Shown here in pieces: positions 14,748 to 60,113 of a DNA stretch of 60,113 bases. The stretch comes from Narcine bancroftii. Its lineage: Eukaryota. How positions within the stretch are numbered: the first letter of the stretch is position 1; every line of letters begins with the position of its first letter. The notes beneath the pieces were generated by a model. It did no database searches, was not told the DNA's origin, and saw only the letters and a list, made by a program, of their open reading frames with translations. The position numbers were made by a program, and so were the translations under genes. The DNA lies in assembly GCF_036971445.1 (NCBI RefSeq), contig NC_091478.1:30755888-30816000 (forward strand). The letters are read 5' to 3'.

Positions 14748-15343
14748 CAGGTACACAATCCTTTATCCGGAATCTTTGGGGGACAGAGTATTCTGAATTT
14801 CAGATTTTTCCAGATTTCGGAAACCCCATCAAAATTGTGCTGCCGGCCCCCCGGCCGCCGGCCCCCCGGCCGCCGGCCCCCCGGCCGCCGGCCCCCCGGC
14901 CGCCGGCCCCCCGGCCGCCGGCCCCCCGGCCGCCGGCCCCCCGGCCGCCGGCCCCCCGGCCGCCGGCCCCCCGGCCGCCGGCCCCCCGGCCGCCGGCCCC
15001 CCGGCCGCCGGCCCCCCAACCGCCGGTCCCCCGGCCGCCTCCCCCAACCGCCGGTCCCCCGGCCGCCTCCCCCAACCGCCGGTCCCCCGGCCGCCTCCCC
15101 CAACCGCCGGTCCCCCGGCCGCCTCCCCCAACCGCCGGTCCCCCGGCCGCCTCCCCCAACCGCCGGTCCCTCGGCCGCCTCCCCCAACCGCCGGTCCCTC
15201 GGCCGCCTCCCCCAACCGCCGGTCCCTCGGCCGCCTCCCCCAACCGCCGGTCCCTCGGCCGCCTCCCCCAACCGCCGGTCCCCACTTGCTGGATTTTGGA
15301 GCTTTCCGGATTTTAGATGTCCGGATAAAAGATAGTGTACCTG
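14748..15343. mobile_element. Tc1/mariner-superfamily (Tigger/pogo-like) MITE
   Basis: TIRs CAGGTACACAATCCTTTATCCGGA...TCCGGATAAAAGATAGTGTACCTG, flanked by TA on both sides (14746-14747, 15344-15345). Confidence 0.9.
14842..15283. repeat. Compound GC-rich minisatellite: 15-bp GCCGGCCCCCCGGCC about 11-12 copies, then 28-bp CCGCCTCCCCCAACCGCCGGTCCCYCGG about 10 copies
   Basis: Direct reading; AAC recurs every 28 bp from 15018 to 15270. Confidence 0.95.
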
Positions 15344-16631: not shown

Positions 16632-16755
16632 CTGCCCTCTGCATTTTGGTAAATGTTATATCCTCAGTTGTTTTTACTTCCTCTATTGTCCGAAATCCTA
16701 GTCCATACCACTTGTCAGCCGTCTTCACTCCAACACCAAAGACACTGGTGAACAG
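16632..16755 (-). CDS. DNTT: TdT coding exon, equivalent to human exon 6 (fingers, HhH motif)
   Basis: tttttactgcag|CTG...GCA G|gtaat. 124 nt, phase 0-1, LFTSVFGVGVKTADKWYGLGFRTIEEVKTTEDITFTKMQRA(G). Confidence 0.94.
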
Positions 16756-16992
16756 CTGCAGTAAAAACAATTTACACTGAATGGAGATCGTTGCTCTGTT
16801 AGTGTTAACACCTGCATCACATATTATTGTCATTATGTTGACCTTTTTTATCAATTAATGCATTTAAAAAAAATCACAAAGAACCTGTTATTAGAAGAAA
16901 TGCACAAACTTTCTCAGGCAAGCTCGTGCTAACTGAGAAAAAAGATTATTATCACACAAAATGTCACACAAAATTAAATGTCAAAAGGTTTC

Positions 16993-18921: not shown

Positions 18922-19160
18922 GAGGCTGTTAGGACAGCACTCTTACTGTGCCAGAGATCGGGATTGTGGTTCAATCCTACGCTATCTGTAAGGAGTTTAT
19001 ATATCCTCCCCTCGTCTGCGTGGGTTTTCGTCAGGGGCTCCCATTTCCTCCCACCCTCCAAAAAAAAATGTACTGGGGGTGTAGGTCAATTGGGTCACAC
19101 TGGCTCATGAGCCAAAAGGGTCTGTCACCATGCTGGATGTTAAAATTTAAATAAATTTAA
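18922..19160 (+). mobile_element. tRNA-derived SINE
   Basis: B-box-like GGTTCAATCC and the conserved core (tctgtaaggagtttatatatcctcccc..gtgggtttt), shared with copies at 28630, 29830, 50205 and 59545. Confidence 0.7.
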
Positions 19161-19773
19161 ACTAAAGTGTCATAGATTCATTTAGCATAGAAACACGTCT
19201 TCGGCTTATCATTCCAGGCAGAATACAAAGTACCCATCTATGGTAATCCCATTTATCAGCATTGAGTCTGTAGACTTAAATATCTTGGTAATTCAAGTGC
19301 TCATTGAGCTACTTCGTAAATGTTATGAGAGCCTCTGCTTTCCACCACTGTCTTAGACAGTGGGTCTCCAGTCTGAAGTATGGAGATTTGGTGTAATTGA
19401 CGTTAGAAGAACTATGTGCACTCATAGGGCAGGACTTTGACATGTGTTTTTTTTTGGAGAGCACAGTGCAGTGGGTTGGTATTATGAAGTTAAATAATAT
19501 GCTGGTGTTTGCGAGAAAGGAAAGTGAATCAAGGCCAACATTTTAATGTCAGCCCAGCTGAGATTAAGCTCTGAAGAAATATTGTTATCAGTATTATTGC
19601 TTAGTATTTTATTCTGATTTGTAAGAAGAACTACATTGTAACAAATGAAGACAAATTAAGATGCAATATTTTCCACATTATTTAGTTGACTTTAAGAAAT
19701 GTGTAATGTTCATTGTCTGTTACAGCAGGGATCGACATCATTGTCCAGAAATAAATTTTACAAAGTTTTGTAC

Positions 19774-23808: not shown

Positions 23809-26800
23809 TTCTTCTTTTTTTCTTTGGCTTGGCTTCGCGGACGAAGATTTATGGAGGGGTAATGTCCATGTCAGCTGCAGGCTCGTTTGTGGCTGACAAG
23901 TCCGATGCGGGACAGGCAGACATGGTTGCGGGGAAAATTGGTTGGTTGGGGTTGGGTGTTGGGTTTTTCCTCCTTTGTCTTTTGTCAGTGAGGTGGGCTC
24001 TGCGGTCTTCTTCAAAGGATGTTGCTGCCCGCCGAACTGTGAGGCGCCAAGATGCACGGTTTGAGGCGATATCAGCCCACTGGCGGTGGTCAATGTGGCA
24101 GGCACCAAGAGATTTCTTTAGGGAGTCCTTGTACCTCTTCTTTGGTGCACCTCTGTCACGGTGGCTAGTGGAGAGCTCACCATATAACACGATCTAGTGA
24201 AGGCGATGGACCTCCATTCTGGAGACGTGACCTGCCCAACGCAGTTGGATCTTCAGCAGCGTGGATTCGATGCTGTCGGCCTTTGCCATCTCGAGTACTT
24301 CGATGTTAGGGATGAAGTTGCTCCAATGAATGTTGAGGATGGAGCAGAGACAACGCTGGTGGAAGCGTTCTAGGAGCCGTAGGTGATGCCGGTAGAGGAC
24401 CCATGATTCAGAGCCAAACAGGAGTGTGGGTATGACAACAGCTCAGTTTACGCTAATCTTTGTGAGGTTTTTCAGTTGGTTGTTTATCCAGACTCTTTTG
24501 TGTAGTCTTCCAAAGGCACTATTTGCCTTGGCGAGTCTGTTGTCTATCTCGTTGTCGATCCTTGCATCCGATGAAATGGTGCAGCCGAGATAGGTAAACT
24601 GGTTGACCGTTTTGAGTTTTGTGTGCTTGATGGAGATGTGGGGAGGCTGGTAGTCATGGTGGGGAGCTGGCTGATGGAGGACCTCAGTTTTCTTCAGGCT
24701 GACTTCCAGGCCAAACATTTTGGCAGTTTCCGCAAAATAGGACGTCAAGCGCTGAAGAGCTGGCTCTGAATGGGCAACTAAAGCGGCATCGTCTGCAAAG
24801 AGTAGTTCACGGACAAGTTGCTCTTGTGTCTTGGTGTGAGCATGCAGGCGCCTCAGATTGAAGAGACTGCCATCCGTGCGGTACCGGATGTAAAAAGCGT
24901 CTTCATTGTTGAGGTCTTTCATGGCTTGTTTCAGCATCATGCTGAAGAAGATTGAAAAGAGGGTTGGTGCGAGAACGCAGCCTTGCTTCACGCCATTGTT
25001 AATGGAGAAGAGTTCAGAGAGCTCATTGCTGTATCTGACCCGACCTTGTTGGTTTTCGTGCAGTTGGATAACCTTGTTGAGGAACTTTGGGGGGCATCCG
25101 AGGCGCTCTAGTATTTGCCAAAGCCCTTTCCTGCTAACGGTGTCGAAGGCTTTGGTGAGGTCAACAAAGGTGATGTAGAGTCCTTTGTTTTGTTCTCTGC
25201 ACTTTTCTTGGAGCTGTCTGAGGGCAAAGACCATGTCAGTAGTTCCTCTGTTTGCGCGAAAGCCGCACTGTGATTCTGGGAGAACATTCTCAGCGAGACT
25301 AGGTACTATTCTATTTAGGAGAATCCTAGCGAAGATTTTGCCTGCAATGGAGAGCAGCGTGATTCCCCTGTAGTTTGAGCAGTCTGATTTCTCGCCTTTG
25401 TTTTTGTACAGGGTGATGATGATGGCATCGCGAAGGTCCTGAGGCAGCTTTCCTTGGTCCCAGCAGAGCTTGAAAAACTCATGCAGTTTGGCATGCAGAG
25501 TTTTGCCGCCAGCCTTCCAGACATCTGGGGGGATTCCATCCAAACCTGCTGCTTTGCCACTTTTCAGTTGTTCAATTGCCTTATATGTCTCTTCCTGGAT
25601 GAGGACCTCATCCAGCTCTAGCCTTAGGGGCTGTTGAGGGAGCTGGAGCAGGGCGGATTCTTGGACTGAGCGGTTGGCACTGAAAAGAAATTGGAAGTGT
25701 TCTGACCATCGGTTGAGGATGGAGATCTTGTCGCTGAGGAGGACTTTGCCATCTGAACTGCGCAGCGGGCTTTGGACTTGGGGTGAGGGGCCGTACACAG
25801 CCTTTAGAGCCTCGTAAAAACCCCTGAAGTCGCCAATGTCTGCGCTGAGCTGGGTTCGTTTGGCGAGGCTAGTCCACCACTCATTTTGGATCTCCCGGAG
25901 TTTGCGCTGAAGATGGCTGCTTGCGCGATGGAAGGCTTGTTTCTTCTCTGGCCAGGACAGCTTTGCAAGGTGAGCCTGGTGGGCAGTTCGCTTCTTTGCC
26001 AGCAGCTCCTGGATTTCCTGGTTGTTTTCGTCGAACCAGTCCTTGTTTTTCCTGGAGGAGAAGCCTTCAGCTGATCCCAGAGGGTTTCAGGGGACGAGTC
26101 CATGAGGCGGATTGCATCCTCGAGCTTTGCTTTGAGGTTTGCCTGGAAGTTTCCTCTCACTCCAACATTGAACCTCTTTCTGGGGGCTTTACTGTTCCTG
26201 GACTTTGGCTTGAAGTGAAGGTTGAGCTTGCAGCGAACCAGCCGGTGGTCAATGTGGCATTCTGCGCTGGGCATGACCCTGGTGTGGAGCACATCTCGTT
26301 TGTCTCTTTCTCGCACCAGGACGTAGTCCAGGAGGTGCCAGTGTTTGGATCGGGGATGCATCCAGGTAGTCTTCAGGCTATCCCTCTGCTGAAAAAGGGT
26401 GTTTGTAATGACAAGCCACTGTTCTGCGCAGAGCTCCAACAGGAGGCGCCTGTTGTCGTTGCACTTGCTGACACCATGCTTGCCCAGGATTCCTGGCCTG
26501 GTTTCTGAGTCTTTGCCGATGCGAGCGTTGAAGTCGCCAAGGATGACAACCTTGTCGGCTGTAGGGGTGCGTTGAATGAGGTTGCACAGATCAGTGTAGA
26601 ACTTGTCCTTTTCTGCTGGTTCCGCCTGGAAGGTTGGATCATAGACACTGATGAGGGTGACGCGACGCTTGTTTTGAAGGGGGAGTCGCATGGACATGAT
26701 CCGGTCCGAGTGGCCTGTCAGGAGGTTTTCGAGTATGGAGGCAATGGAGTTCTTGACCATGAAGGTGTCGTTCATCCATAGGCTTCCCAGACCAGTAGAG

Positions 26801-27219
26801 TGTGTAGCCCACGTCGCGTTCTTGGAGGCTGCCTGCATCTGCAAGGCGGACTTCACTGAGAGCGGCTATGTTGATGTCAAGTCTGAGGAGTTCATGTGCG
26901 ATGAGGGCAGACCGACGTTCAGGTCGGTGGCTGTCAGCCTTGTCTAGCATGGTTCTGATGATCCAGCATGCTAGCTTGAGTTTGTGAGCATCTTTTGAGG
27001 GGGAGGACGTGGAGGGGGAGGACGTGGACCTATCCTCGGGCCTGCGCAAAGGAGCTTTTAGGTGGAGTGCAGTGTGTGCAGTACTGGCCCCACCCTTTAC
27101 ACCCATGGTTCGTGTGCTGTGGCCAAGCAAGCTGGGACGTGGCAGTGAGGTCCTTGGGTCATAGGTTTTATATCAGAGTGGCCTTCTCCTATGCAGGTTT
27201 CTTACCCGGGCTGGAGGGG
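23809..27219 (-). mobile_element. Near full-length RTE-clade LINE (single APE endonuclease + RT ORF broken by several frameshifts)
   Basis: ORFs 26639..27130 (KLACWIIRTM, IAALSEVR), 25804..26856 (ILGDFNARIG, LDYVL, DHRLV) and 24443..25798 (NYRGITLLS, ESQCGFR, FVDLTKAFDTV, GVKQGCVLAP, LLFADD, FTYLG). GAA-rich tail; TSD CAAGAGT at 23802-23808 and 27220-27226. Confidence 0.95.
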
Positions 27220-29817: not shown

Positions 29818-30070
29818 TTTTTTTTATTTTAAAATTTAGACATACAGCACTGTAACAGGCCAATTTGGCCCTACGAGCTGCCTAGTTTACACCTCATTAG
29901 CCTACATCCGGTACATTTTCTAATGGTGGGAAGAAACCGAAGTCCCCGAACAAAACCCACACAAGCATGGGTAAAACGTACAAACTCCTTACAGACAGCA
30001 CGGGCTTCGAACCCAGTTCTGGTCTTGATAACTGGTGCTGTAAAGGCATTGTGCTAACCGCTACGCCAAT
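29818..30070 (-). mobile_element. tRNA-derived SINE
   Basis: Reverse complement has tggcgtagcggttagcac...GGGTTCGAAGCCC; the tail aatttagacatacagcac is shared with 59548 and 17020. Confidence 0.8.
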
Positions 30071-34199: not shown

Positions 34200-34520
34200 T
34201 AAAGAAATCTCTTGGTGCCTGCCACATTGACCACCGCCAGTGGGCTGATCTCGCCTCAAACCGTGCATCTTGGCGCCTCACAGTTCGGCGGGCAGCAACC
34301 TCCTTTGAAGAAGACCGCAGAGTCCACCTCACTGTCAAAAGACAAAGGAGGAAAAACCCAACACCCAACCCCAACCCACCAATTTTCCCCTGCAACCGCT
34401 GCAACCGTGTCTGCCTGTCCCGCATCGGACTTGTCAGCCACAAACGAGCCTGCAGCTGACGTGGACATTTACCCCCTCCATAAATCTTTGTCTGCGAAGC
34501 CAAGCCAAAGAAAGAAGAAA
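34200..34520 (+). mobile_element. 5'-truncated RTE LINE copy
   Basis: Same family as 226-711; retains the C-terminal PCNRCNRVCLSRIGLVSHKRACS. Confidence 0.9.
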
Positions 34521-35171
34521 AAATAATATAGTTGCTTTGGCAAAAATTTTTAAAGTTAGTCCTTATGAACAATGAAGATTTGAATAAATCAAAGATAGTA
34601 ATAGAGGTAGCTTGGTTGAAATGGGCCTGACTGTGATTTGCGATGTGCAAGGATGGATTGAACAATGGTATTCCTATGTTAATTACTGCATGATACCATT
34701 TTAGATCAGGAGACAATGGATAAGTTCTGTTAAAAATATAAACCTGCAAAATTTTTCTTCTACCAAATTGAACGTTTTCAATTCAACGCTATAGTAACAA
34801 AGCAAATACTAGTCCTCCCAGAGATGTACTACTCTTCCAGCCAAAATGACAAATGTTTTGCTCTTTTGCCTATTTCAATAATGTTTCTCCTGCAATTAAC
34901 ACCTGACAAGGTGAGTGATATTTCATTAAAGTACAGAAAGAAACTTCTGATGTAGCAGCAGGCACAGACTATTATTTTTCAATCCAGCCCTATTGTCATA
35001 TATTCCACACAGCTGGGATGCTGGACTTTTGAGGCCACAGCTCCAGCTGTGACCAAAATGAAACCACTTGCCTAAAAATATTTTCATGAAGTAAATTCTC
35101 AGGGTTAGATGTTGTTTCATGAATGGATTTTACAGTACCTATTCAATCCTCATAATTAGTGGAGCTAAATC

Positions 35172-36111: not shown

Positions 36112-36292
36112 TTTCTTTCTTTTTCTTTGGCTTGGCTTTGCAGACGAAGATTTATGGAGGGGGTAAAAGTCCACGTCAGCTGCAGGCTCGTTTGTGGCTG
36201 ACAAGTCCGATGTGGGACAGGCAGACATGGTTGCAGCGGTTGCAGGGGAAAATTGGTTGGTTGGGGTTGGGTGTTGGGTTTTTCCTCCTTTG
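36112..36292 (-). mobile_element. Short RTE LINE 3' end
   Basis: Reverse complement of the 3' end of the 34200 copy. Confidence 0.9.
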
Positions 36293-36719
36293 CCTGTGAT
36301 TTAAAATGTATATAACACTTTGGGAAATTTTCTAATTAAGAAGGCTTTAATTTCCAATGTTTATTCTCAGCCTCAACCTGCAAAAGTAGTCTACATCATC
36401 ATTTAAAGAGCTGCTGCTTCTTTTCCGATTGTTCATCATTTCTTAGGAATCTTCATCAATTAAAATATAATGGATTTACTCACTAGCTTCCTTCTTGCAT
36501 CTAACATTATCCGAGGCAATCAATCAAGGATCTGATGTTAACTCAAAAACTGCAACTAAGAAGCAAAATTGACACCACAATGGAGGGAGTTGATAACCAG
36601 CTAGCAGACATAACAAGTAAGATTTAAACAAATATTCTATGAAATCTCATGAGCCAGGAAGAACTAAAACACTCTTAATGACTCCTAACAAGTAGAACAA
36701 ATGTAGCATTTTTTTTATA

Positions 36720-46130: not shown

Positions 46131-46854
46131 TACATAGTCAAGGCGAATTTTAACATGCAAGTACATTGGAAAATCCAGGTTGGGACTGGATTTCAAGAAA
46201 GAAAATTTGTAGAAAGCCTATGAGATGGCTTTTTAGAGCAGCTTGTTGATGAGTCCACGTGGGGAATGACTGTACTGGATTAGATGTTGTGTAATGCAGC
46301 AGAGGTGATTAGAAGGTAAGTATGTATATTTTGACTCTTTCATGACCTGTAACCCTGTTATAGTTTGTCAAAAACAACAAAAATCTATGATGAAAAAATA
46401 AGTGTGCTTTAAGACTTTGGTACTCCACGCGCACAGGCAAAATTCTGACTTGCGACCATTCTGAGATATGGTCGCTCCTTCGGTCCCAGTTACAGTCTTA
46501 AGTAGGGGACTACCTGTATATGTTAATTTGTGTAAGACCAATAAAAAAAATTAGAGAAAAAAAGTGAAGAAAATCAGAAAGATAGCTGATATCATAAAGA
46601 CTCTAAATCTGCCACAAAAAAAAAACATGAGAAAATTCTTTCTCAGATTAAGCAAGGTTTGGGACATGGAATCTGTTACATCTTTGTCTGGGTGTTTACT
46701 GGCATCGTCCTCTATGTTGCAGCAGTTATTCATGGAGAAATCCTCCACATTGGACTTGTTTACCACCAGGAAACAAAAAACTAAAATTTGTACAAATTTG
46801 CAAATAGATAACCATGTCAGAAATAAGATAAAAAGGTTATTTGATGAGTTTTAC

Positions 46855-46956
46855 CGTGAAAATCTTGTTTTTATTGTCAAGCGTAGATTTCCTCAGACAT
46901 GCATACTGAGGAACAGTTGTCAGGAGTGAAGTTGATGGTAAATCTGATTGAAGCAC
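46855..46956 (-). CDS. DNTT: TdT (DNA nucleotidylexotransferase) coding exon, equivalent to human exon 3 (linker after BRCT into the 8-kDa domain)
   Basis: Minus strand reads ctttttctttccttag|GTG...ACG|gtaaaa. 102 nt, phase 0-0, translating VLQSDLPSTSLLTTVPQYACLRKSTLDNKNKIFT, which matches the TdT motif SQYACQRRTTLNNxNxIFT. Not in the ORF track. Confidence 0.88.
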
Positions 46957-50400: not shown

Positions 50401-50559
50401 CAACGTAACCAATGCCACTACACTAATCTAACCATTGTCAGGCTCATTCAGGAACCTGATAACTGCAGGAAGTAAACGTCCATGTGGGATGGATGTTGTA
50501 CCCTGCTACGCAAAGGACACTCTCTCCCTTTGCTACTCTCAGTGTTTCTTCCAAGTGGA

Positions 50560-51680
50560 AGGTTAGTTAGGAAGGTTCATGTGATAAGGATTAACTTTGA
50601 GATAATCAAATGGATTCAACAGTGGCTGGAAGGGAGATGCCAGAGAGTCATTGTGGATAAATGTTTGTCAGGCTGGAGACTGGTAACAAGCAGTGTGCCT
50701 CAGGTTTCTGTAATGGGTCCCTTGCTGTTTATCGTTTACATTAATGATCTGGATGATGGGGTGGTAAATTGGATTAGTAAATAGGTGGAATTGTGGATAA
50801 TGAAGAAAGTTTTTAAAGATTGCAAAAGGATTTGGATGACTTAGAAGAGTGGGCTGAAAGATGGCGGATGGAGTTTAATGCTGAGAAGTGTCCAGTGCTT
50901 CATTTTGGAAGGAATAATCAAAACAGGACGTACATAGTAAATGGGAGGGCAGTGAAGAATGCAGTGGAGCAGAATGATCTAGGAATAATGGCTCATCATT
51001 CCCTGAAAGTAGAATCTCATGTAGATAGGGTGGTGAAGAAGGCTTTTAGTATGCTGGCCTTTATAAATCAAAGCATAGAATACAGGAGTTGGGAAGTGAT
51101 GTTGAGACTAATTAAGGCATTGGTGAGGCCAAATTTAGAGTACCTTGTGGCATTCTGGCCACCAAATTACAGGAAGGATATCAATAAGGTAGAAAGAATG
51201 CAGAGAAGATTTATGAAAATATTACCTGGGTTTCAGAATGTAGATTACAAAGAAAGATTGAGCAGATTAGGTCTTTATTCCTTGGAACATTGAAGGTTGA
51301 GTGGGGTCTTGATAGAGGTATTTAAGATTATGAGGGGGATAGATAAGAGTTGATGTGAATAGGCTTTTTCCCTTGAGGGTAGGAGAGATTGAAACAAGAG
51401 GTCATGAGTTAAGAGTTAAGGGGAAAAAGTTTAGAAGTTACATGAGGGGGAACCTTCGCTCAAGAAAGTAGTGGCTGTATGGAATGAGCTTCTGGGAGTA
51501 GTGGTGGCAGGGTCCATTTTGTAATTTAAGAAAAAATTGGATAGGTATATGGATGGGAAGGGGAATGGAGGGTTATGGGCAAGGTGCAGGTAGGTGGGAC
51601 TAGAGCACAGGACTTGGTTCAGTGTGGATTAGAAGGGATGAGATGGCCTGTTTCTGTGCTGTAATTGTTATATTGTTATA
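50560..51680 (+). mobile_element. CR1-like LINE RT 3' part and 3' UTR
   Basis: ORFs 50482..50784 (VTSSVPQVSVMGPLLFIVYINDLD) and 50820..51293 (WRMEFNAEKC, LVRPNLEY, RLGLYSLE). Confidence 0.85.
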
Positions 51681-52860
51681 TGGTGTCCTACATGGATTAG
51701 TATTGATTCATGAGCTAAGGGGGAAGAGCAGTAGATAGTATTCAGCATAAGGTTTTCTTGCCCAGGGTTAACCTGATACCATGAGGTATTATTTGATCTG
51801 GAGTCAATGTTAAGGACAGTATACCATTGCATACCACTCAGTATAACACTGAGCTGCCATCTCTGCTGGATCTGTCTTGCCCGGTGGGATAGGACATACA
51901 CAGGGATGAAGCTGGTCATGTTTGGGATGTTGATTATAAGGTATGATTCCATTAGCAAGACTACATCAGGCTGTTGCAGAAGCAAATTACCCGACCAGCA
52001 TTACTTTGAAGATGTGGGAAGCTTTATATTCTATATTATCTAATTAAATTCTGAGATTTTAATAAGTTCTATTCAGTAAAGTTTAATGGGTTCTGAAAGT
52101 TTTTTCTGTGAAATTAATAACATTTGATCTCTCATTCGGTTCAAACTCACGGAATGAGCGAGTAAAAAAAGAGAAAACATCTTGGCTGTTAGGCCATCTA
52201 TTTTTTTTAAAACGTTTTCACAATGAATGATAAAAAGATAGCAATGCCATCAGGGTAACATCTTTGCTGTCAATCAAAATCAGAATGAACTACCATGGTC
52301 TAAGCAATCAACACTTCCATCAGGATTTAAATTTCAATTAATCCCTGTCAAGATGTAAACAAATAATGAGTTGGCTTGCCAAACAAAGCTCTTGACTTGC
52401 ATCCTGTAGACAGCACATAACTTTGACATCACCTTATAAATAAGAGAACTCCAATCTGATATGGCTCAAATTTATAGATATTTTTCCATTGCATCTTACA
52501 TTATTGAAAAAGAAAATCAATGGAGATTGAACCCAAAAACTCATGAAAACATTTGCAACGATCCTGGTTTGCGATGATGTCTTGCCCATTCAGTGCAGTG
52601 CGGAGAGGACACTAACATTGTGGTGTCTTCATTCTTCATCACATTATCTATTTGTTGTGAGAGCAGCAGGGCCTCGATTAATGTAATTATATACCACGCT
52701 CTCTAAAGCTTGGTGACAATAATTAAAGAATTAGCACAATATGATTTCTCAAGGTTCCAGCATTATAGGTGACGAATGCAGAGCAGCAAACAACATGAAA
52801 CAAAGTATTTGGATGTACATCAGAAATCAAAGGAACCAGATGAGCAGACAGCTATGGAAG

Positions 52861-53554
52861 TGTGAGAGATGGGAAAATTGACCTAAAATTATGAACATGG
52901 AAGAAACTAAAGTTCATCAGTAAAATGGCTGAAACCAGTTCAAACAGGATAAGTTTGGGGCTTAGGATGCAGGAAAGCAGAGTCAGCAAGATTAACATAA
53001 GAATCTTCTATCCTTTGTGACAAGACCATAGGACTAAGATAAGGAATGGTAAGGTACAATAGAATGTAGGAAGTTGAGGTAGTCTGGATCAGATAAGGGT
53101 CTCCTAGCCCTGGACAGAAGTACCAAGTCATACATTTCTAATTAGCTAACCATACACAGATTTATACATATGAAATTAGCCAACCCTAGATAGAATGAGT
53201 CAACTCTGCATATCAAGAGACTGTAGCCCCGAGAATCAGAAGGTGTGAATAAGGACAATGACATGAAGGGACACCGACAGGATAACCCCCCTGGTTCTCC
53301 AAGTATACTGAAATTGCACGTAGGCAGGCAGGATTGCCTAATGCCAAACCTCTCCAGCAGGAGGCAGAAGAATGTAAGGGGGAGGGTATTCCTACACTGA
53401 AATCAACTGTATAAAAGTTGGGTGAGCCCCAGTGTGTGTGTGTATTCCCAGGGTAAGGGGAAGCACCCAACTTTGCATTGTTGTAGTAATAAATGTTCTT
53501 TGTTCTCAATTTTTGTCTCGAGCAATTTCTTTAAAGGTACTTTAATTCCTAACA
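52861..53554 (+). repeat. ERV 5' LTR
   Basis: TGTGAG...CTAACA; TATAAAA at 53410-53416 and AATAAA at 53488-53493. Confidence 0.97.
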
Positions 53555-53556
53555 AA

Positions 53557-53574
53557 TGGGGGCTCGTCCGGGAT
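53557..53574 (+). promoter_or_regulatory. Primer binding site complementary to the tRNA-Pro 3' end
   Basis: TGGGGGCTCGTCCGGGAT, the canonical 18-nt MLV-type PBS-Pro, 2 nt after the 5' LTR. Confidence 0.95.
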
Positions 53575-53778
53575 CACACTCCCTCCACTGACAGAGTGCC
53601 CCGACGACGAGAGTAGGTGCACCCCGGCTGATTCAGCTGGACTCACGGGCGACGGGTGGCTGGTCAGTGGAAGAAGCGAGTGATATCCGAGAAGAGGCAT
53701 TGAGAACAAACGGCGGAAGGACGCGCGCTAGAGCAGTACTGCCAGAACTCGGTAAGAGTATTTTACTTGTTCCTAAGT

Positions 53779-54997
53779 ATGGGAATAGCGGGCAGTAGAG
53801 ATGAGAGTCCTGACACAGGACGTGACCACCAGATAGCTACGTACAGCCCGCTTGGGATGATGTTATCTGAGTGGGGCACAGGAAAGACCCGCGGTAAAGA
53901 CAAACTAGCGGGCAGTAGAGATGAGAGTCCTGACACAGGACGTGACCACCAGATAGCTACGTACAGCCCGCTTGGGATGATGTTATCTGAGTGGGGCACA
54001 GGAAAGACCCGCGGTAAAGACAAACTGACGACGGTCAGGTATTGTTGTAATGAATGGGTGGGATACCCGGTTAAAGGGAGCTCCGTGTACTGGCCAAAAT
54101 TCGGATCCGAGGATGAATGGATGTGTGAAGTTTGAACTTATGGCTCTATCAAAACCAGCCAGACAATGTTGAGAGCAGGGAATATGCAGCCTGCTGGCTC
54201 AAGGGATCCATTGAACAGCTGGTTTTGAATGAGAAAGAATTCAGGAATAAGAGAGAGGAGGAACCTCTTGTCCCTGAACCACAGGGTTGGGATGTGTTAC
54301 ATTCCCTCCCTCCACCTTATGTTCCTCCTATGCCGGCTCCTATCTTTCCTTCCCCTCCTATTGCCTACCCTTCTGCACCTTCCCCACCTCCCCCACCACT
54401 AGAGAAGAGAGAAGAGAGCAGGAGTGGTATGATAACTTGCTCACAAAGCACTCGATTACCACCTCTGTTGGCAGGAGAGAGAGGTAACTTTAATTCAGAA
54501 CAGCGTGAGACTCTTCAGGAAGAAGGCAGAACCCTTTGATTCATTTCCCAGGGAGCAGGAACCCAGACCTAATAAGCCAGAAACCAATTGGATGAGACCA
54601 CTGCGGGAAGTTCCCATGAGAGAGGGTCTCGGTTTCGTAAATGTGCCCCTGACCAGTACTGAAGTGTGTAACTTTAAGAAAGAACTGACCTCCCTGATAG
54701 AAGATCCCCAGGGATGTGCCGAACAGTTAGACCAATTTTTGGGACCAAATATATATACAATATGGGGGTCTCGACATAGAATCCCCAGCAGGGGAACAAT
54801 TGGTACTAACAGGTTTTGTTACCAACTCAGCCCCAGACATTAAGAGAAAATTACAAAAGACAGAAAATTGGCATGAGCAGGGAATAACCCAGCTTCTACA
54901 GATCACACAAAAAGCATTTGTCCAGACATCTGAGGATAAGCAGAAAGCAAAGGCTAACATTTTGATGCAAGCAGTTAAAGGAATAGTAGACGAGTAA
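53779..54997 (+). pseudogene. gag: ERV gag pseudogene (MA, late domains, partial CA), frameshifted and internally deleted
   Basis: ATG at 53779 gives MGIAGS (MGxxxS myristoylation motif). MA motifs SPLGMML..W and CNEWVGY..WPKFGS; late domains PPPY and PSAP; CA pieces PLREVP..VNVPLTSTEVCNFKKEL..LIEDP and FVTNSAPDIKRKLQK. Spread over four ORFs. Confidence 0.88.
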
Positions 54998-56465
54998 CAT
55001 GAAAAAAAAAGGCAGGGACTGTGTGCCAGCTCCTGAATGTTGGGAGAAGTGCAGGGAGTGGGAGAGTAGAGACCAGAGATAATTTCATAAATCACGACTT
55101 CCCACTTCAGTCACTGACCAATATTGATTAAAATTCATGCTAAAATTTAAATGTCATAAATGATCGTTTTTCAATACTGAAGAATTAGCGAATTTAACTA
55201 CCAGTTAATTCCAATTTATGAAATAAATTGTATTCAAATGTGATTTTGCACAGGGACTACCTGAGAATAGTGATGTTATAACATTTGCAGGGAGAAATGT
55301 TTGCGCAAATAGGGTGAGTTCTATACATCTTAACTTTAAGTGTATGTGAGATAAAGAAAGGATCTGATGTGTAAAGTGGCTGGATCAGCCAGTTGAAGGG
55401 GGAGTGTGCATGTCCCTTTAAGTGCACTGTGGCACTTGAAATTGAGGCTTCAGGCTCTTGTCTTGCAGTTAGAGATATGGAGCCCTATCAACACATTTAA
55501 TACATTTCTTCTACACATTCAGCAGTCAAGGTCCGTGAGTTTAAAGATCACCCACCTCTGGAGAATAAAGATACCTCTGGGGATTCCTATGGGGATTCCT
55601 ATAAGTTTAATCATTCATTTCTCTGGTGCATTTTCCTCTGGAGTGAAATTAATGCCTCAGCACAATTTCTCTGTATTGCCGCTGTTATTTAATTCATGAT
55701 AACTTTCCCCCATTCATCAGGTTTATATTTAAATCCGGTAGTGCGGAAGTTACATTGTAAATAATCACGGAGGTAAACCCTGCGCAACTGGATTCAGCTT
55801 AATGGAGAAATAAACCTGCGAACTGGTCTATGGTGCTGTGTGAGTACTGCAATAGGTGGAATATGATTTAAATTGGTGGCATAGTTCAGAACAATTGGGT
55901 GCATAAGAATAATAATATCATTAAGAACTCACAGATCTTGTACCAGATGCTATTCAGTACATCTTGACTTAAGGACTGGAGAAATTGGCATGTTAGAATG
56001 AGATTGGCATGGTACCAATATTTCTTGATTCAATAATGACTCCACAAGCTCCAGGATTCATGCAGCAGAACTTTTAAGTGGAATATAATAGAAACTAGCC
56101 TGTACTTAAATTATTGTGTGTGCAATCTTCATAAGAACATCTTTTAACTTTTTTTTGGTGCCTGTTTTACAGACTGTTTTAAATAAGGCCAGCTCCTGTG
56201 AGCTGTGGCACAAGGCATTTTACTTAAGGCAGAACTAAAGGTTGAATATGTTTCAAGTTCTCTTGCAGGGGCTCTTGTGCTGCAATGTCTGTTATGTACT
56301 CACTCTAACAAATTGGAGGGTTGTGCCCCATACAGACAAGCAGCTCCAACTGCATTTTAATAAGGTCTAACATATTCAAAACCCATGCAAATATGGTTTG
56401 TGTTTCATTTTACAATTTTTACACTAACACAAAGGAAAGTCAGATTGTTATTCATTTTATTAAAA

Positions 56466-56606
56466 TCTAGTGATTGGTTATATGTAAAAGCATGGCAAGA
56501 GGATCAACTAAAACCTGCCTGGGATGGTCCCTTCTGTGTACTTTTAATTACAGACACCGCAGTAAGAACAAGAGAGAAAGGCTGGACCCACATTCAAAGA
56601 ATTAAT
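56466..56606 (+). pseudogene. Retroviral integrase C-terminal (GPY/F) remnant
   Basis: DWLYVKAW..QLKPAWDGPFCVLLITDTAVRT.EKGWTH, typical of class I integrase C-termini. Confidence 0.85.
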
Positions 56607-56644
56607 GACAAAGTGCCATAATGTTACAATTTTATTCGTTTTTT

Positions 56645-57100
56645 TAATGGTTTATTCAGTTTTGTGTATTTTATTGCTGTTTTCAATGAGCTTTACATTT
56701 ATCGTGGTTTATTCAGTTTTTGTGTATTTTATTGCTGTTTTCAATGAGCTTTACATTTATTGTGGTTTTATTCAGTTCTTCTTGCATTTTATTGCAGTTT
56801 TCAATGAGCTTTACATTTATTGTGGTTTTATTCAGTTCTTCTTGCATTTTATTGCAGTTTTCAATGAGCTTTACATTTATTGTGTTTTATTCAGTTCTTA
56901 CTGTATTTTATTGCAGTTTCCAATGAGTTTGACATTTATTGTGGTTTTATTCAGTTCTTCTTGCATTTTATTGCAGTTTTCAATGAGCTTTACATTTATT
57001 GTGTTTTATTCAGTTCTTATTGTATTTTATTGCAGTTTTCAATGAGCTTTACATTTTTTGTGTTTTATTCAGTTCTTATTGTATTTTAATGAGCTTACAT
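56645..57100. repeat. AT-rich 57-60-bp tandem array, about 7-8 copies, inside the ERV
   Basis: Unit ATTTATTGTGGTTTTATTCAGTTCTTCTTGCATTTTATTGCAGTTTTCAATGAGCTTTAC. Confidence 0.93.
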
Positions 57101-58000
57101 GTATTCTTCATTGTTGTTTACTAATTTCTTTGGAATATTGTTCGTTAATGTTTTAAGCCCCCCTGGAATAGGGGCAGCAGAGGTTACAATTCAGCTCCTT
57201 TAGAATGTAGACAGGGCATAGATTTAATGTATAGTCATAATGGGATATAAGGGATCCCAATACGGACCAGGGGAATTAAACAGCTTTAGTGGAGTACTCT
57301 CGATGTTTTAAGTACTTCTGGAGAAGGGGTAGCAGAGGTTACAGATTGTACTGTTTTACAGGCTAGAGAGGGCATAGAGGCAAGGTATTTAGAATACGGA
57401 TCAGGGAAACACAGTGGGGATAGGCAGTCACACAGTGAGGCACCTGTGTACACAGACTAACCGCAAAATAAACAATGTACATTTCACACAAAGGGGGAAA
57501 CTAACAAGCTAACCGCAAAACAAACAGACACTTCACACAACCACGAGACACATAATCCCCCACCTGGCTCTCTCTCTGATCATCCCTGAAGGGGAACACC
57601 TGTTTTCAGGGAGCTGCTGCTCATCTGGTGCTTATATAACGTGGAAAGGAGCGAAGTAGAGTGCAGGGTGTCAAAATCCTCACAAAGGACATGGTGGGAC
57701 AAAGACAGACAGAATGGTAGTCAGGATTGTACATGTAGCAGAGAGAGAGAGAGTTGACACATATGCTAATGTTAGCAGACAAGCTGCAACACACAGTTAA
57801 ATCACAAGAAACAATCCCCCCCCAGCTTGGTCTCTTTTCATCACCCCATGAAAGGGAGCACCAGTTTCCAACAACGTGAGCTGCTTGACACTTTAATATC
57901 AGGCTCCAAACAGCCTTCGGAGATCGGTGGCCCTAGGGTTCGGGGCTGAAGAGGACATCAGATACTAGCCACAATCAAACGGAACCGCCTGACTACTGCT

Positions 58001-58160
58001 ACTCGTTCGCTGCTGAAGGCAGCGCTTCTCATAGACTGCGACTCGTTCGCTGCTGAAGGCAGCGCTTCTCATAGACTGCGACTCGTTCGCTGCTGAAGGC
58101 AGCGCTTCTCATAGACTGCGACTCGTTCGCTGCTGAAGGCAGCGCTTCTCACAGACTTCG
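58001..58160. repeat. 40-bp tandem repeat x4, each unit containing a stem-loop
   Basis: Unit ACTCGTTCGCTGCTGAAGGCAGCGCTTCTCATAGACTGCG, with internal CGCTGC-TGAAG-GCAGCG. Confidence 0.95.
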
Positions 58161-58511
58161 TCGGGACAACACTTACAAAGGTCGTGTGCTTCAAAGACAC
58201 TGCTTCAATATTTCAACGTATGGGATGGACTAGACTTTTTACTGAGAACTGGAGCCTGATACTCCAAACCCTAATAAGCAGCTGGACTCACTCCCCTGAC
58301 CTTCATGGTGCTCCCCTACCTAAAGACTTTACACAGACATTACAATTCGGTTATTGACCAGCTGGGTAAAACTACACCTTACACTTGAAAGATCAGTGTT
58401 ACTGATCTAAAAGAAAAGTGAGGAAAAGGGGGGGGGGGGATCAGTCACACTGACACTAGTAACCAAAGATCAGTAACACTGATCATGGTGAAAGATCAGT
58501 ATTACTGATCT

Positions 58512-58527
58512 AAAAGAAAAGTGAGGA
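58512..58527 (+). promoter_or_regulatory. Polypurine tract before the 3' LTR (duplicate copy at 58409-58424)
   Basis: AAAAGAAAAGTGAGGA ending 1 nt upstream of the LTR start. Confidence 0.85.
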
Positions 58528-58528
58528 T

Positions 58529-59222
58529 TGTGAGAGATGGGAAAATTGACCTAAAATTATGAACATGGAAGAAACTAAAGTTCATCAGTAAAATGGCTGA
58601 AACCAGTTCAAACAGGATAAGTTTGGGGCTTAGGATGCAGGAAAGCAGAGTCAGCACGATTAACATAAGAATCTTCTATCCTTTGTGACAAGACCATAGG
58701 ACTAAGATAAGGAATGGTAAGGTACAATAGAATGTAGGAAGTTGAGGTAGTCTGGATCAGATAAGGGTCTCCTAGCCCTGGACAGAAGTACCAAGTCATA
58801 CATTTCTAATTAGCTAACCATACACAGATTTATACATATGAAATTAGCCAACCCTAGATAGAATGAGTCAACTCTGCATATCAAGAGACTGTAGCCCCGA
58901 GAATCAGAAGGTGTGAATAAGGACAATGACATGAAGGGACACCGACAGGATAACCCCCCTGGTTCTCCAAGTATACTGAAATTGCACGTAGGCAGGCAGG
59001 ATTGCCTAATGCCAAACCTCTCCAGCAGGAGGCAGAAGAATGTAAGGGGGAGGGTATTCCTACACTGAAATCAACTGTATAAAAGTTGGGTGAGCCCCAG
59101 TGTGTGTGTGTATTCCCAGGGTAAGGGGAAGCACCCAACTTTGCATTGTTGTAGTAATAAATGTTCTTTGTTCTCAATTTTTGTCTCGAGCAATTTCTTT
59201 AAAGGTACTTTAATTCCTAACA
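58529..59222 (+). repeat. ERV 3' LTR
   Basis: Copy of 52861-53554 at offset 5668; the only difference seen by eye is A52989 versus C58657. Confidence 0.97.
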
Positions 59223-59539
59223 GAAGTCAATGTCACGAGATTAGGTCCAATAGCCTGCTGGAGTGCAACTAGAAATTCAATGATCTCACGGGAGGGGTCA
59301 AAAATGTTAAACAGCTTCAATTAACATATTTTGCCATTCCAACCATCAACTTATGTGACTGATCAAGTTGCTATACTTCCTCACCTCACCTATCAACCAC
59401 CTTTATCAGTCAAAATTAAGCCAGAATGATATGTTTCCTTCTCCCTCCCCACTGGATTTAGCACTGGTGCAAATCCCTGCACAGCTTCTTCTTCCACCTT
59501 CATCTGTTCCTTATATAGCTCTTCCTCTTCCTTTAAATA

Positions 59540-59795
59540 TAAAAAAAATTAGACATACAGCACAGTATTAGGCCATTTTGGCTCACAAGTCCGTGGCGAC
59601 CAACTTACATCCAATTAACCTTCACTCCTGGTATGTATAGAACAGTGGGAGGAAACTGGAGCCCCCATGGAAAACCCAGGCAGACACGGGGAGAACGTAC
59701 AAACTTCTTACAGACAGTGCAGGATTCGAACCTTTATCCCAATCACTGGCACTGTGACGGCATTGCACTAACTGCTACACTAGCTGTGCTGCCCC
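59540..59795 (-). mobile_element. tRNA-derived SINE
   Basis: Same family as 29818-30070 (tail aattagacatacagcac; the reverse strand has GGTTCGAATCC). Confidence 0.8.
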
Positions 59796-60113
59796 AACCT
59801 TGCCTTCCTTTTCCTTGCGCTCCAGATTTTCAACTCCTTGATGACAAGACCTGTTCCTTCATGCATCAGAAATCAGAAAGCCCATCCAGTTGATCACTGC
59901 AGAGCTTCTTCAGAAGATTCTAATTTCAGTATTTTATCTTTCTCAGCCTGAAGATGCTCCATGGGACTATGGCTTTTGTTCATTGCAAGTTCTCTAGAAG
60001 TGCACATATCATGCATTAAAGTCAATAACCAGTTGTCAACAGATAGCCTCTGGAGATAGCATGTTCATTTTAAATATGTCAAATTGGCATTTCAGTTGCT
60101 GGTCCATTTAACA

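What the first reader, a model, noticed from the sequence alone, without database searches (positions are those of the whole stretch)
52861..59222. Very young non-autonomous ERV: near-identical LTRs around a long-dead, rebuilt interior
Seen: 694-bp LTRs differing at one position by eye, an intact GAAG TSD, a perfect PBS-Pro and a PPT. Yet gag has several frameshifts and a capsid deletion, RT/RNaseH/env are absent, and only about 140 bp of integrase remains. Known: LTRs are identical at integration, so that much internal decay is unlikely to have accumulated at this locus. Inference: this is a member of a parasitic, VL30/ETn-like family mobilised recently in trans by an active class I helper retrovirus, probably in a cartilaginous fish. 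It has kept only cis-acting RNA modules and sits antisense inside what is probably DNTT intron 2.
Basis: partly seen in the sequence, partly recalled or inferred. Interest (0 to 1): 0.75.

Follow-up and report, generated by a model that had tools for sequence, protein, structure and literature searches.

The report
Parasitic retrovirus family in electric ray
This is one copy, probably not yet fixed in the species, of a broken retrovirus-like element that likely exists in several hundred near-identical copies in an electric ray's genome and likely spread by borrowing the enzymes of an intact relative, a lifestyle already known from mice, cattle and koalas but not found described for rays or sharks in my searches.

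Summary
Confirmed: 694-bp LTRs differing at one base, GAAG target duplication, tRNA-Pro primer site, purine tract, broken gag, ~150 bp of integrase, antisense to a TdT (DNTT) gene. It is a family member, not a lone ruin. Five Narcine bancroftii proteins on at least four contigs end at the same capsid-deletion junction. Interior contigs identical to the window lie at 312-423 times single-copy depth in two DNA runs of one sample. A full-length Gag, 97% identical to three deleted siblings, marks a candidate helper; the siblings are mosaics. Contig ends point to an empty allele in that sample. Corrections: the two frameshifts and the 120-bp duplication are not family-wide (siblings keep a 315-residue frame). 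The filler holds an inverted fossil RT fragment. 'Very young' is not shown by the LTRs: at a shark mutation rate one difference spans about 26,000 to 5.7 million generations. No intact pol or env of a helper was found. The design matches ETn/MusD, recKoRV and bovine D-type ERVK: a new member of a known kind, in a new host class.

The parts
52857..52860 (.). 5' target-site duplication GAAG
52861..53554 (+). 5' LTR, 694 bp, TATA at 53410, AATAAA at 53488
53557..53574 (+). primer-binding site for tRNA-Pro, 2 nt after the LTR
   Evidence: same 18-mer named tRNA-Pro PBS of MLV in PMC1769482
53575..53778 (+). GC- and CpG-rich leader (likely packaging region, inferred) with a splice-donor-like GGTAAG at 53751
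   Evidence: folding no better than shuffles, z -0.88
53779..54997 (+). broken gag: matrix, proline-rich region and capsid pieces; 120-bp duplication 53786-54025; frameshifts near 54130 and 54524; family-shared capsid deletion at 54758/54759; ends before the zinc knuckle
54998..56462 (.). central filler replacing the end of gag and nearly all of pro-pol; shared, often letter for letter, with high-depth contigs
55854..56132 (-). inverted, stop-containing fragment of a class I reverse transcriptase N-terminus inside the filler
56463..56618 (+). integrase C-terminal remnant (MLVIN_C)
   Evidence: loose ends on both sides
56641..57090 (.). array of ~7.4 copies of a T-rich 60-mer; 20 AATAAA hexamers on the - strand, none on +
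57091..58379 (.). 3' non-coding interior in place of env, with an imperfect 76-bp repeat pair and a CpG-rich 40-mer x4 array (57995-58157)
58380..58528 (+). repeated palindromic hairpin module and duplicated purine tract; the PPT next to the LTR is ~58512-58526
58529..59222 (+). 3' LTR, 694 bp
59223..59226 (.). 3' target-site duplication GAAG
46852..46956 (-). host TdT (DNTT) exon nearest the element, 5.9 kb downstream of it in gene direction
   Evidence: weak alone, E 0.03
16633..16758 (-). later host TdT (DNTT) exon
   Evidence: E 9e-12 to mouse TdT

Best explanation
This is one insertion of a non-autonomous class I (gamma/epsilon-like) endogenous retrovirus family, likely several hundred copies strong in an electric ray (most likely Narcine bancroftii), that was likely copied and integrated by the proteins of a related intact provirus. 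Shown: integrase-type ends and target duplication; no self-encoded RT, RNase H, integrase core, zinc knuckle or env; the capsid deletion and the filler are shared with many other copies, so most decay happened once in a founder and was then copied. Inferred: a founder arose when the middle of a provirus was replaced by unrelated sequence that included an inverted piece of an older retroelement. Its RNA, with LTRs, primer site, leader and purine tract, was co-packaged with helper RNA, reverse-transcribed and integrated. Template switching with helper RNA explains why deleted copies carry different gag 5' segments, some 97% identical to the full-length Gag. This copy belongs to a minor branch or picked up private changes (two frameshifts, a 120-bp duplication, about 1% substitutions). 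It sits antisense in the TdT gene and is probably heterozygous in the sequenced animal. Whether the family still moves today is open (about even odds).
For: Same capsid-deletion tail in 5 of 6 proteins of the two closest clusters, on at least 4 contigs. Five contigs with 0 differences to the window's interior lie at depth 2357-3190 (X4; flank 7.55) and 5346-5375 (X7; flank 13.8), ratios 312-423. Runs hold 66-74% of the interior's sampled words, more than gag plus leader (29%) or the whole laid part (62%) could give, so the unlaid 3' interior is shared too. Undeleted capsid continues from 54758 in 6 (X4) and 5 (X7) contigs; other sequence joins upstream of the integrase remnant at 56463 in 3 contigs of X7. 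P0006 is a 563-aa Gag with Gag_p30 and zf-CCHC. Mosaicism: P0001 is 93% like P0002 and 78% like P0006 over columns 1-60, but 65% and 92% over columns 171-245; P0003-P0005 are 97% like P0006 over columns 1-288 yet carry the deletion. Empty allele: X4's flank contig matches to 52861 and runs on for 442 letters that do not lie on the LTR; X7's stops exactly at 52861, the last base that the filled and empty forms share. In run X11 the LTR has another flank.
Against: No intact pol or env of this family was found: the integrase-remnant search gave 0 of 2 candidates, and the phmmer hits that span most of the remnant reach about 60% identity. Depth of contigs is not a true copy number (tool caveat), and X4 and X7 are one sample, possibly the window's source. 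The letters of X4's 442-base run-on were not shown, so the empty allele is inferred. The window copy differs from the contig majority at about 1%, more than its LTR pair predicts, and its frameshifts are not family-wide. At 7e-10 per base per generation (epaulette shark, PMC10587355) one LTR difference means ~1.0 million generations (Poisson range 26,000-5.7 million), so recency is not proven. Trans-complementation itself was not tested.
Confidence: 0.86

Rival explanations
1. Same family and same mechanism, but an old burst: the helper is extinct, and the LTR identity and lack of fixation reflect the slow mutation rate and large populations of elasmobranchs.
For: One LTR difference is compatible with up to ~5.7 million generations at the epaulette-shark rate. 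The window copy carries several changes absent from the contig majority. The same interior, 0.6-2% different, occurs in a run labelled as another organism (X11). No intact pol was found.
Against: An empty allele is indicated. A full-length open Gag and several open 315-aa frames persist, three of them 99% alike on different contigs. The rate comes from a shark, not a ray.
Confidence: 0.35
2. The interior multiplied at the DNA level (tandem arrays, segmental duplication or conversion between solo LTRs) rather than through RNA and a helper.
For: Some siblings lie on small contigs (732 kb; the full-length Gag on 217 kb) and are nearly identical. One contig joins an LTR end to an LTR start.
Against: This copy has its own target duplication and a likely empty allele. 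Another flank is seen in X11. Siblings lie on at least four contigs and are mosaics with the full-length type.
Confidence: 0.07
3. An old single-locus provirus whose LTRs were made alike by gene conversion or assembly collapse.
For: The LTR family is very abundant (summed depth tens of thousands), so conversion or mis-assembly is possible in principle.
Against: The deletion and the filler are shared by many copies. The family's LTRs vary at many sites, yet this pair differs at one. An old fixed locus would have no empty allele.
Confidence: 0.04

Closest known systems
Bovine ERVK[2-1-LTR] D-type elements (PMC10924933; abstract, passages and section 20 read)
   Same: Defective copies keep LTRs and part of gag, have the centre swapped for an old retroelement piece, recombine with competent copies, and are abundant in their clade (85% D-type of ~400 loci).
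   Different: ERVK, not class I. Mobilisation in trans was measured in cattle germlines; here it is inferred. Here the captured RT piece is inverted and the 3' remnant is integrase, not env.
Mouse ETn mobilised by MusD (PMC6466679, passages read)
   Same: LTR element without coding capacity, derived from its helper, keeping bits of gag and pol around unrelated filler; a few hundred copies (~240 ETn), insertionally polymorphic, often intronic.
   Different: Class II betaretrovirus group in mouse. This element has a tRNA-Pro primer site, MLV-type capsid and integrase C-terminus, and siblings keep a 315-aa gag frame.
recKoRV of koala (PMC6112702, abstract read)
   Same: Gamma-like ends around a centre taken from an older degraded retroelement; many copies; disrupted frames.
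   Different: KoRV is a proven infectious helper; none is shown here. The donor of the filler is unidentified here.
Mouse VL30 (PMC6466679, passages read)
   Same: Non-autonomous class I ERV co-packaged with a helper; similar size (5.5 kb cited); polymorphic.
   Different: A rodent family packaged by MLV. Here gag is closely related to, and recombines with, the candidate helper. No sequence comparison with VL30 was made.
Zebrafish BHIKHARI Bik-1/Bik-2 (PMC12067270, passages read)
   Same: Recently active fish ERV families; Bik-2 is called non-autonomous, encoding gag but neither pol nor env.
   Different: Lokiretrovirus-related, with a capsid-bearing Gag shown to have host function. Here the class is I, the capsid is half deleted, and no function is shown.

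Membership tests
Class I (gamma/epsilon-like) ERV | LTRs with TG...CA ends, short target duplication, PBS and PPT | tested here: met
   PBS-Pro
Class I (gamma/epsilon-like) ERV | MLV-type capsid and integrase C-terminal domain | tested here: met
   Gag_p30 and MLVIN_C; best solved-structure hit 6HWX, E 2.5e-26 (that it is MLV capsid is recalled)
Class I (gamma/epsilon-like) ERV | RT phylogeny placing it in gamma, epsilon or an intermediate clade | not testable with these tools
   the element has no sense RT and no helper pol was retrieved; Gag relatives at 33-58% come from sharks, rays and birds
Non-autonomous, trans-complemented ERV (ETn / recKoRV / D-type kind) | no capacity to encode RT, integrase or a full Gag | tested here: met
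Non-autonomous, trans-complemented ERV (ETn / recKoRV / D-type kind) | many copies share the same lesion and filler | tested here: met
Non-autonomous, trans-complemented ERV (ETn / recKoRV / D-type kind) | centre replaced by an older retroelement piece | tested here: met
   inverted fossil RT fragment; the rest of the filler is unidentified
Non-autonomous, trans-complemented ERV (ETn / recKoRV / D-type kind) | a coding-competent helper with related ends in the same genome | tested here: inconclusive
   full-length Gag P0006 and undeleted capsid contigs found; intact pol/env and helper LTRs not found or not visible
Non-autonomous, trans-complemented ERV (ETn / recKoRV / D-type kind) | insertional polymorphism | tested here: inconclusive
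   contig geometry points to both alleles in one sample; run-on letters not shown
Non-autonomous, trans-complemented ERV (ETn / recKoRV / D-type kind) | RNA packaged and copied by helper proteins | not testable with these tools
   only indirect: gag mosaicism
ETn/MusD family proper | class II betaretrovirus group | tested here: not met
   class I domains and PBS-Pro; ETn/MusD class
VL30 family proper | sequence homology to rodent VL30 and packaging by MLV | not tested
   no vertebrate DNA collection to compare against; the host is a ray, so the resemblance is by lifestyle
ERVi (invading ERV, Wang and Han criteria, PMC10435555) | identical LTRs, intact gag/pro/pol/env, insertional polymorphism | tested here: not met
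   one LTR difference and no intact genes; a helper copy might qualify, untested

The most novel reading that the evidence does not exclude
An electric ray carries a class I retrovirus that is still copying itself and is being overrun by this parasite, and the parasite is more than cis signals. Its short matrix-to-half-capsid protein is kept open to steer or jam helper particles. Its 60-mer array of antisense poly(A) signals cuts off host transcripts that read through it, here making a segregating low-TdT allele that would affect antigen-receptor junction diversity.
Probability: 0.12. Interest if true: 0.72.

Novelty: new member of a known kind. Interest (0 to 1): 0.44.

Why it matters
The pattern 'helper ends plus a swapped-in old retroelement, then takeover by the defective form' is reported for mouse, koala and cattle (PMC10924933, section 20). 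Finding it in a ray would extend it across jawed vertebrates and to class I elements of fishes, as a convergent route of ERV decay. It also suggests that ERV loads in cartilaginous fish can be far above the 100-700 insertions quoted for elephant shark (PMC4977317, passage). A screen of 2004 vertebrates for invading ERVs included 13 cartilaginous fishes, required intact genes, and names no cartilaginous clade or order in the sample sizes of its Fig. 2 legend (PMC10435555, section 6 read; supplements not opened); a ray helper would be worth checking by those criteria. The probable polymorphism in the TdT gene gives a testable allele. The kind of system itself is well known.

Tried and rejected
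No whole genome was available, so sibling loci could not be counted or flanks compared directly. Rfam on 52800-59900 gave 3 matches, all E about 4 and far below gathering scores: no ribozyme or known RNA family. No tRNA genes in the window. The interior has no similarity to the LTR or to the rest of the window. The leader (z -0.88) and the 40-mer array (z +1.73) fold no better than shuffles. The pre-PPT module folds at z -6.75, but internal palindrome repeats inflate this, so it is not evidence of function. IMG/VR gave nothing for P0006. The search for a near-identical helper integrase gave 0 of 2 candidates, a weak negative because repeats are often left unannotated (own knowledge). Narcine protein P0009 (57% to the remnant) and P0165 and P0200 belong to other families. 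Expression: no RNA holder listed on record; X1 holds the interior but its kind is a guess, so no claim on transcription is made. Holders X5 and X10 (organisms B, C) were left out because sister runs of the same samples hold 0.00 of the words, which suggests carry-over. Summed LTR depth was not turned into a copy number, since overlapping short contigs inflate it. Earlier findings of this scan: nothing by place, sequence or words. Literature: 'Narcine' plus 'endogenous retrovir' gave 0 papers; searches listed no description of this family; the VGP Phase I preprint has no 'Narcine' or 'retrovir' in its main text. Subscription journals, repeat libraries (Dfam, Repbase) and supplements were not seen, so an automatic repeat annotation may already hold it.
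Full report
Observation. The element runs from 52861 to 59222. Its two LTRs are 694 bp, begin TG, end CA and differ at one position; GAAG lies on both sides. Two bases after the 5' LTR comes the 18-mer that a murine leukaemia virus paper names as the tRNA-Pro primer site (PMC1769482, one passage read). A purine tract precedes the 3' LTR, with a second copy about 100 bp upstream. Against the full-length relative P0006, gag starts at 53779, holds a perfect 120-bp duplication, shifts frame near 54130 and 54524, lacks about 110 capsid codons at 54758/54759 and stops at 54995-54997, before the zinc knuckle. The only sense pol remnant is the integrase C-terminus at 56463-56618. Of 73 frames of 30 aa or more in 55001-58528, none hit RT, RNase H or env in Pfam.

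Host and site. The best protein relatives are Narcine bancroftii predicted proteins (71 of 74 residues identical in the matrix piece), so the host is most likely this electric ray or a close relative. Two minus-strand exons match TdT, so the plus-strand element is antisense to the gene and 5.9 kb upstream of the exon-3-type segment. No BRCT exon was detected in between or up to the window's end (25 frames). Intron 2 is therefore likely but not shown.

It is a family. No genome was held, so I used protein records and public runs. The two closest protein clusters hold six proteins. Five (P0001-P0005, 315-316 aa, on at least four contigs) end in the same out-of-frame tail as the window, so they share its capsid-deletion junction. 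The sixth (P0006, 563 aa) is a complete Gag with capsid and zinc knuckle. Laying 51900-56630 on four runs gave single-copy flank contigs at depth 7.55 (X4) and 13.8 (X7; same sample). Five listed interior contigs without a single difference from the window had 312 to 423 times that depth. The tool warns that depth is no exact copy number, so I read this as a few hundred copies. A capsid C-terminal contig and a filler contig had the same depth in X7 (5375 and 5346), as expected if they travel together. Nine runs hold half or more of the whole interior's sampled words (eight at 0.66-0.74). Gag plus leader make up 29% of the interior and the laid part 62%, so the unlaid 3' part must be widely held too. 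Run X11 (another organism label, another study) has the same interior at 0.6-2% difference and an LTR with a different flank.

What is shared and what is private. The deletion and the filler are family traits. The two frameshifts and the duplication are not: the five siblings read through both places, high-depth contigs differ from the window by small indels exactly there, and the duplication junction is barely covered. Among the 40 of 162 variant sites shown, six (54362, 54619, 54991, 55180, 55257, 55475) have another letter in at least 94% of depth in both DNA runs. The word share implies about 1.0-1.3% difference from what the runs hold. One LTR difference predicts only 0.07% per site since insertion (range 0.002-0.4%). 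So this copy most likely descends from a minor branch. The sibling proteins are a biased sample, since copies with frameshifts would not be annotated.

Filler. A profile of 31 fetched pol-type proteins found, besides the integrase remnant, an inverted RT N-terminal fragment with stops at 55854-56132 (25.8 bits, E 6e-10; no hit in 30 of 30 shuffles). Contigs over this region match the window exactly (X4 55736-55884 at depth 2401; X1 55779-56097). A decayed piece copied letter for letter many times is the clearest sign that decay came before spread. The rest of the filler is unidentified.

Helper. Undeleted capsid sequence continues from 54758 in both DNA runs, and other sequence joins on before 56463 (X7) and after 56605 (X1), at the edges of the integrase remnant. 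P0003-P0005 are 97% identical to P0006 over the first 288 columns yet carry the deletion, while P0001 switches its nearest partner from P0002 (93% vs 78%) to P0006 (92% vs 65%) along its length; the window copy is nearest P0001 in its first piece and P0002 in the next two. Such mosaics are expected when defective and full-length RNAs are co-packaged (inference; the same argument is made for cattle in PMC10924933, section 20). An intact pol or env was not found, so a competent helper is inferred, not shown.

Age and polymorphism. Filled and empty forms of this site share sequence up to 52861. X7's flank contig matches the window at 962 of 962 bases and stops exactly there, as a graph fork would cause; a homozygous insertion would let it run about 30 bases into the LTR. 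X4's contig differs by one gap and runs on for 442 letters that do not lie on the LTR; 442 bases of the 3' flank would end at 59669, inside a repeat found three times in the window. The letters were not shown, so heterozygosity is likely, not proven. LTR identity is a weak clock here: at 7e-10 per base per generation (epaulette shark, PMC10587355, passages read), one difference gives about 1.0 million generations, range 26,000 to 5.7 million. 'Unfixed' is the better-supported word; 'very young' and 'still active' are about even odds.

Possible effect on the host. The 60-mer array carries 20 AATAAA hexamers on the TdT-sense strand and none on the other; the adjacent 5.9 kb of intron has 5. Antisense intronic ERVs are generally the tolerated orientation (PMC1794541, search listing; PMC6466679, passage).

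Comparison. It works like ETn with MusD, recKoRV with KoRV, bovine D-type with C-type ERVK, and VL30 with MLV. It is not a member of those named families: ETn/MusD is class II, and the others are mammal-specific. By domains and primer site it is class I; gamma versus epsilon could not be settled without a helper RT. My searches found no paper on Narcine ERVs or on this family; repeat libraries and supplements were not seen.

Verdict. It is a new member of a known kind, of interest mainly for its host class and scale. Interest 0.44.

Noticed in passing
window 56641-57090: T-rich 60-mer array with three AATAAA per unit on the - strand (TdT sense); on the + strand each unit also holds pyrimidine-rich AG motifs that look like splice acceptors. 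Could act as an antisense poly(A) trap.
   Followed up: partly
window 58380-58528: Three to four copies of a GATCAGT-NNN-ACTGATC-type palindrome and a duplicated purine tract just before the 3' LTR; a candidate export, dimerisation or strand-transfer module.
   Followed up: partly
protein P0200 (Narcine bancroftii, 412 aa): A gag fragment joined to an integrase C-terminus from a different ERV family (47-56% to this one): perhaps a second internally deleted family in the same genome, or a gene-prediction join.
   Followed up: no
run X7, joints 53554 to 52861 and 56446 to 52859: Low-depth contigs join an LTR end to an LTR start with four letters between, and place an LTR start inside the filler: likely the family inserting into its own copies.
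   Followed up: no
run X7, joint 54759-54802: A further small deletion variant at the capsid junction (depth 120, roughly nine times the flank): a sub-branch of the family.
   Followed up: no
window 24443-27172 (-), with shorter copies at 225-711, 34200-34527, 36112-36295: Nearly intact LINE with a 547-aa RT-like frame and an endonuclease-like frame (RTE-like by eye) in the TdT gene; copies 89-96% alike.
   Followed up: no
window 11645-12727: Decayed gypsy-like RT/RNase H fragments (by eye) on both strands.
   Followed up: no
window 4350-4634 and 14842-15283: GC-rich minisatellites (10-, 16-, 15- and 28-mers) inside introns.
   Followed up: no
window 50476-51684 and 59532-59778: A CR1-like LINE fragment and a SINE-like repeat (both named by eye) flank the insertion; the latter recurs at 18945-19161 and 29831-30064.
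   Followed up: no
window 7628-7790: Assembly gap of 163 N.
   Followed up: no
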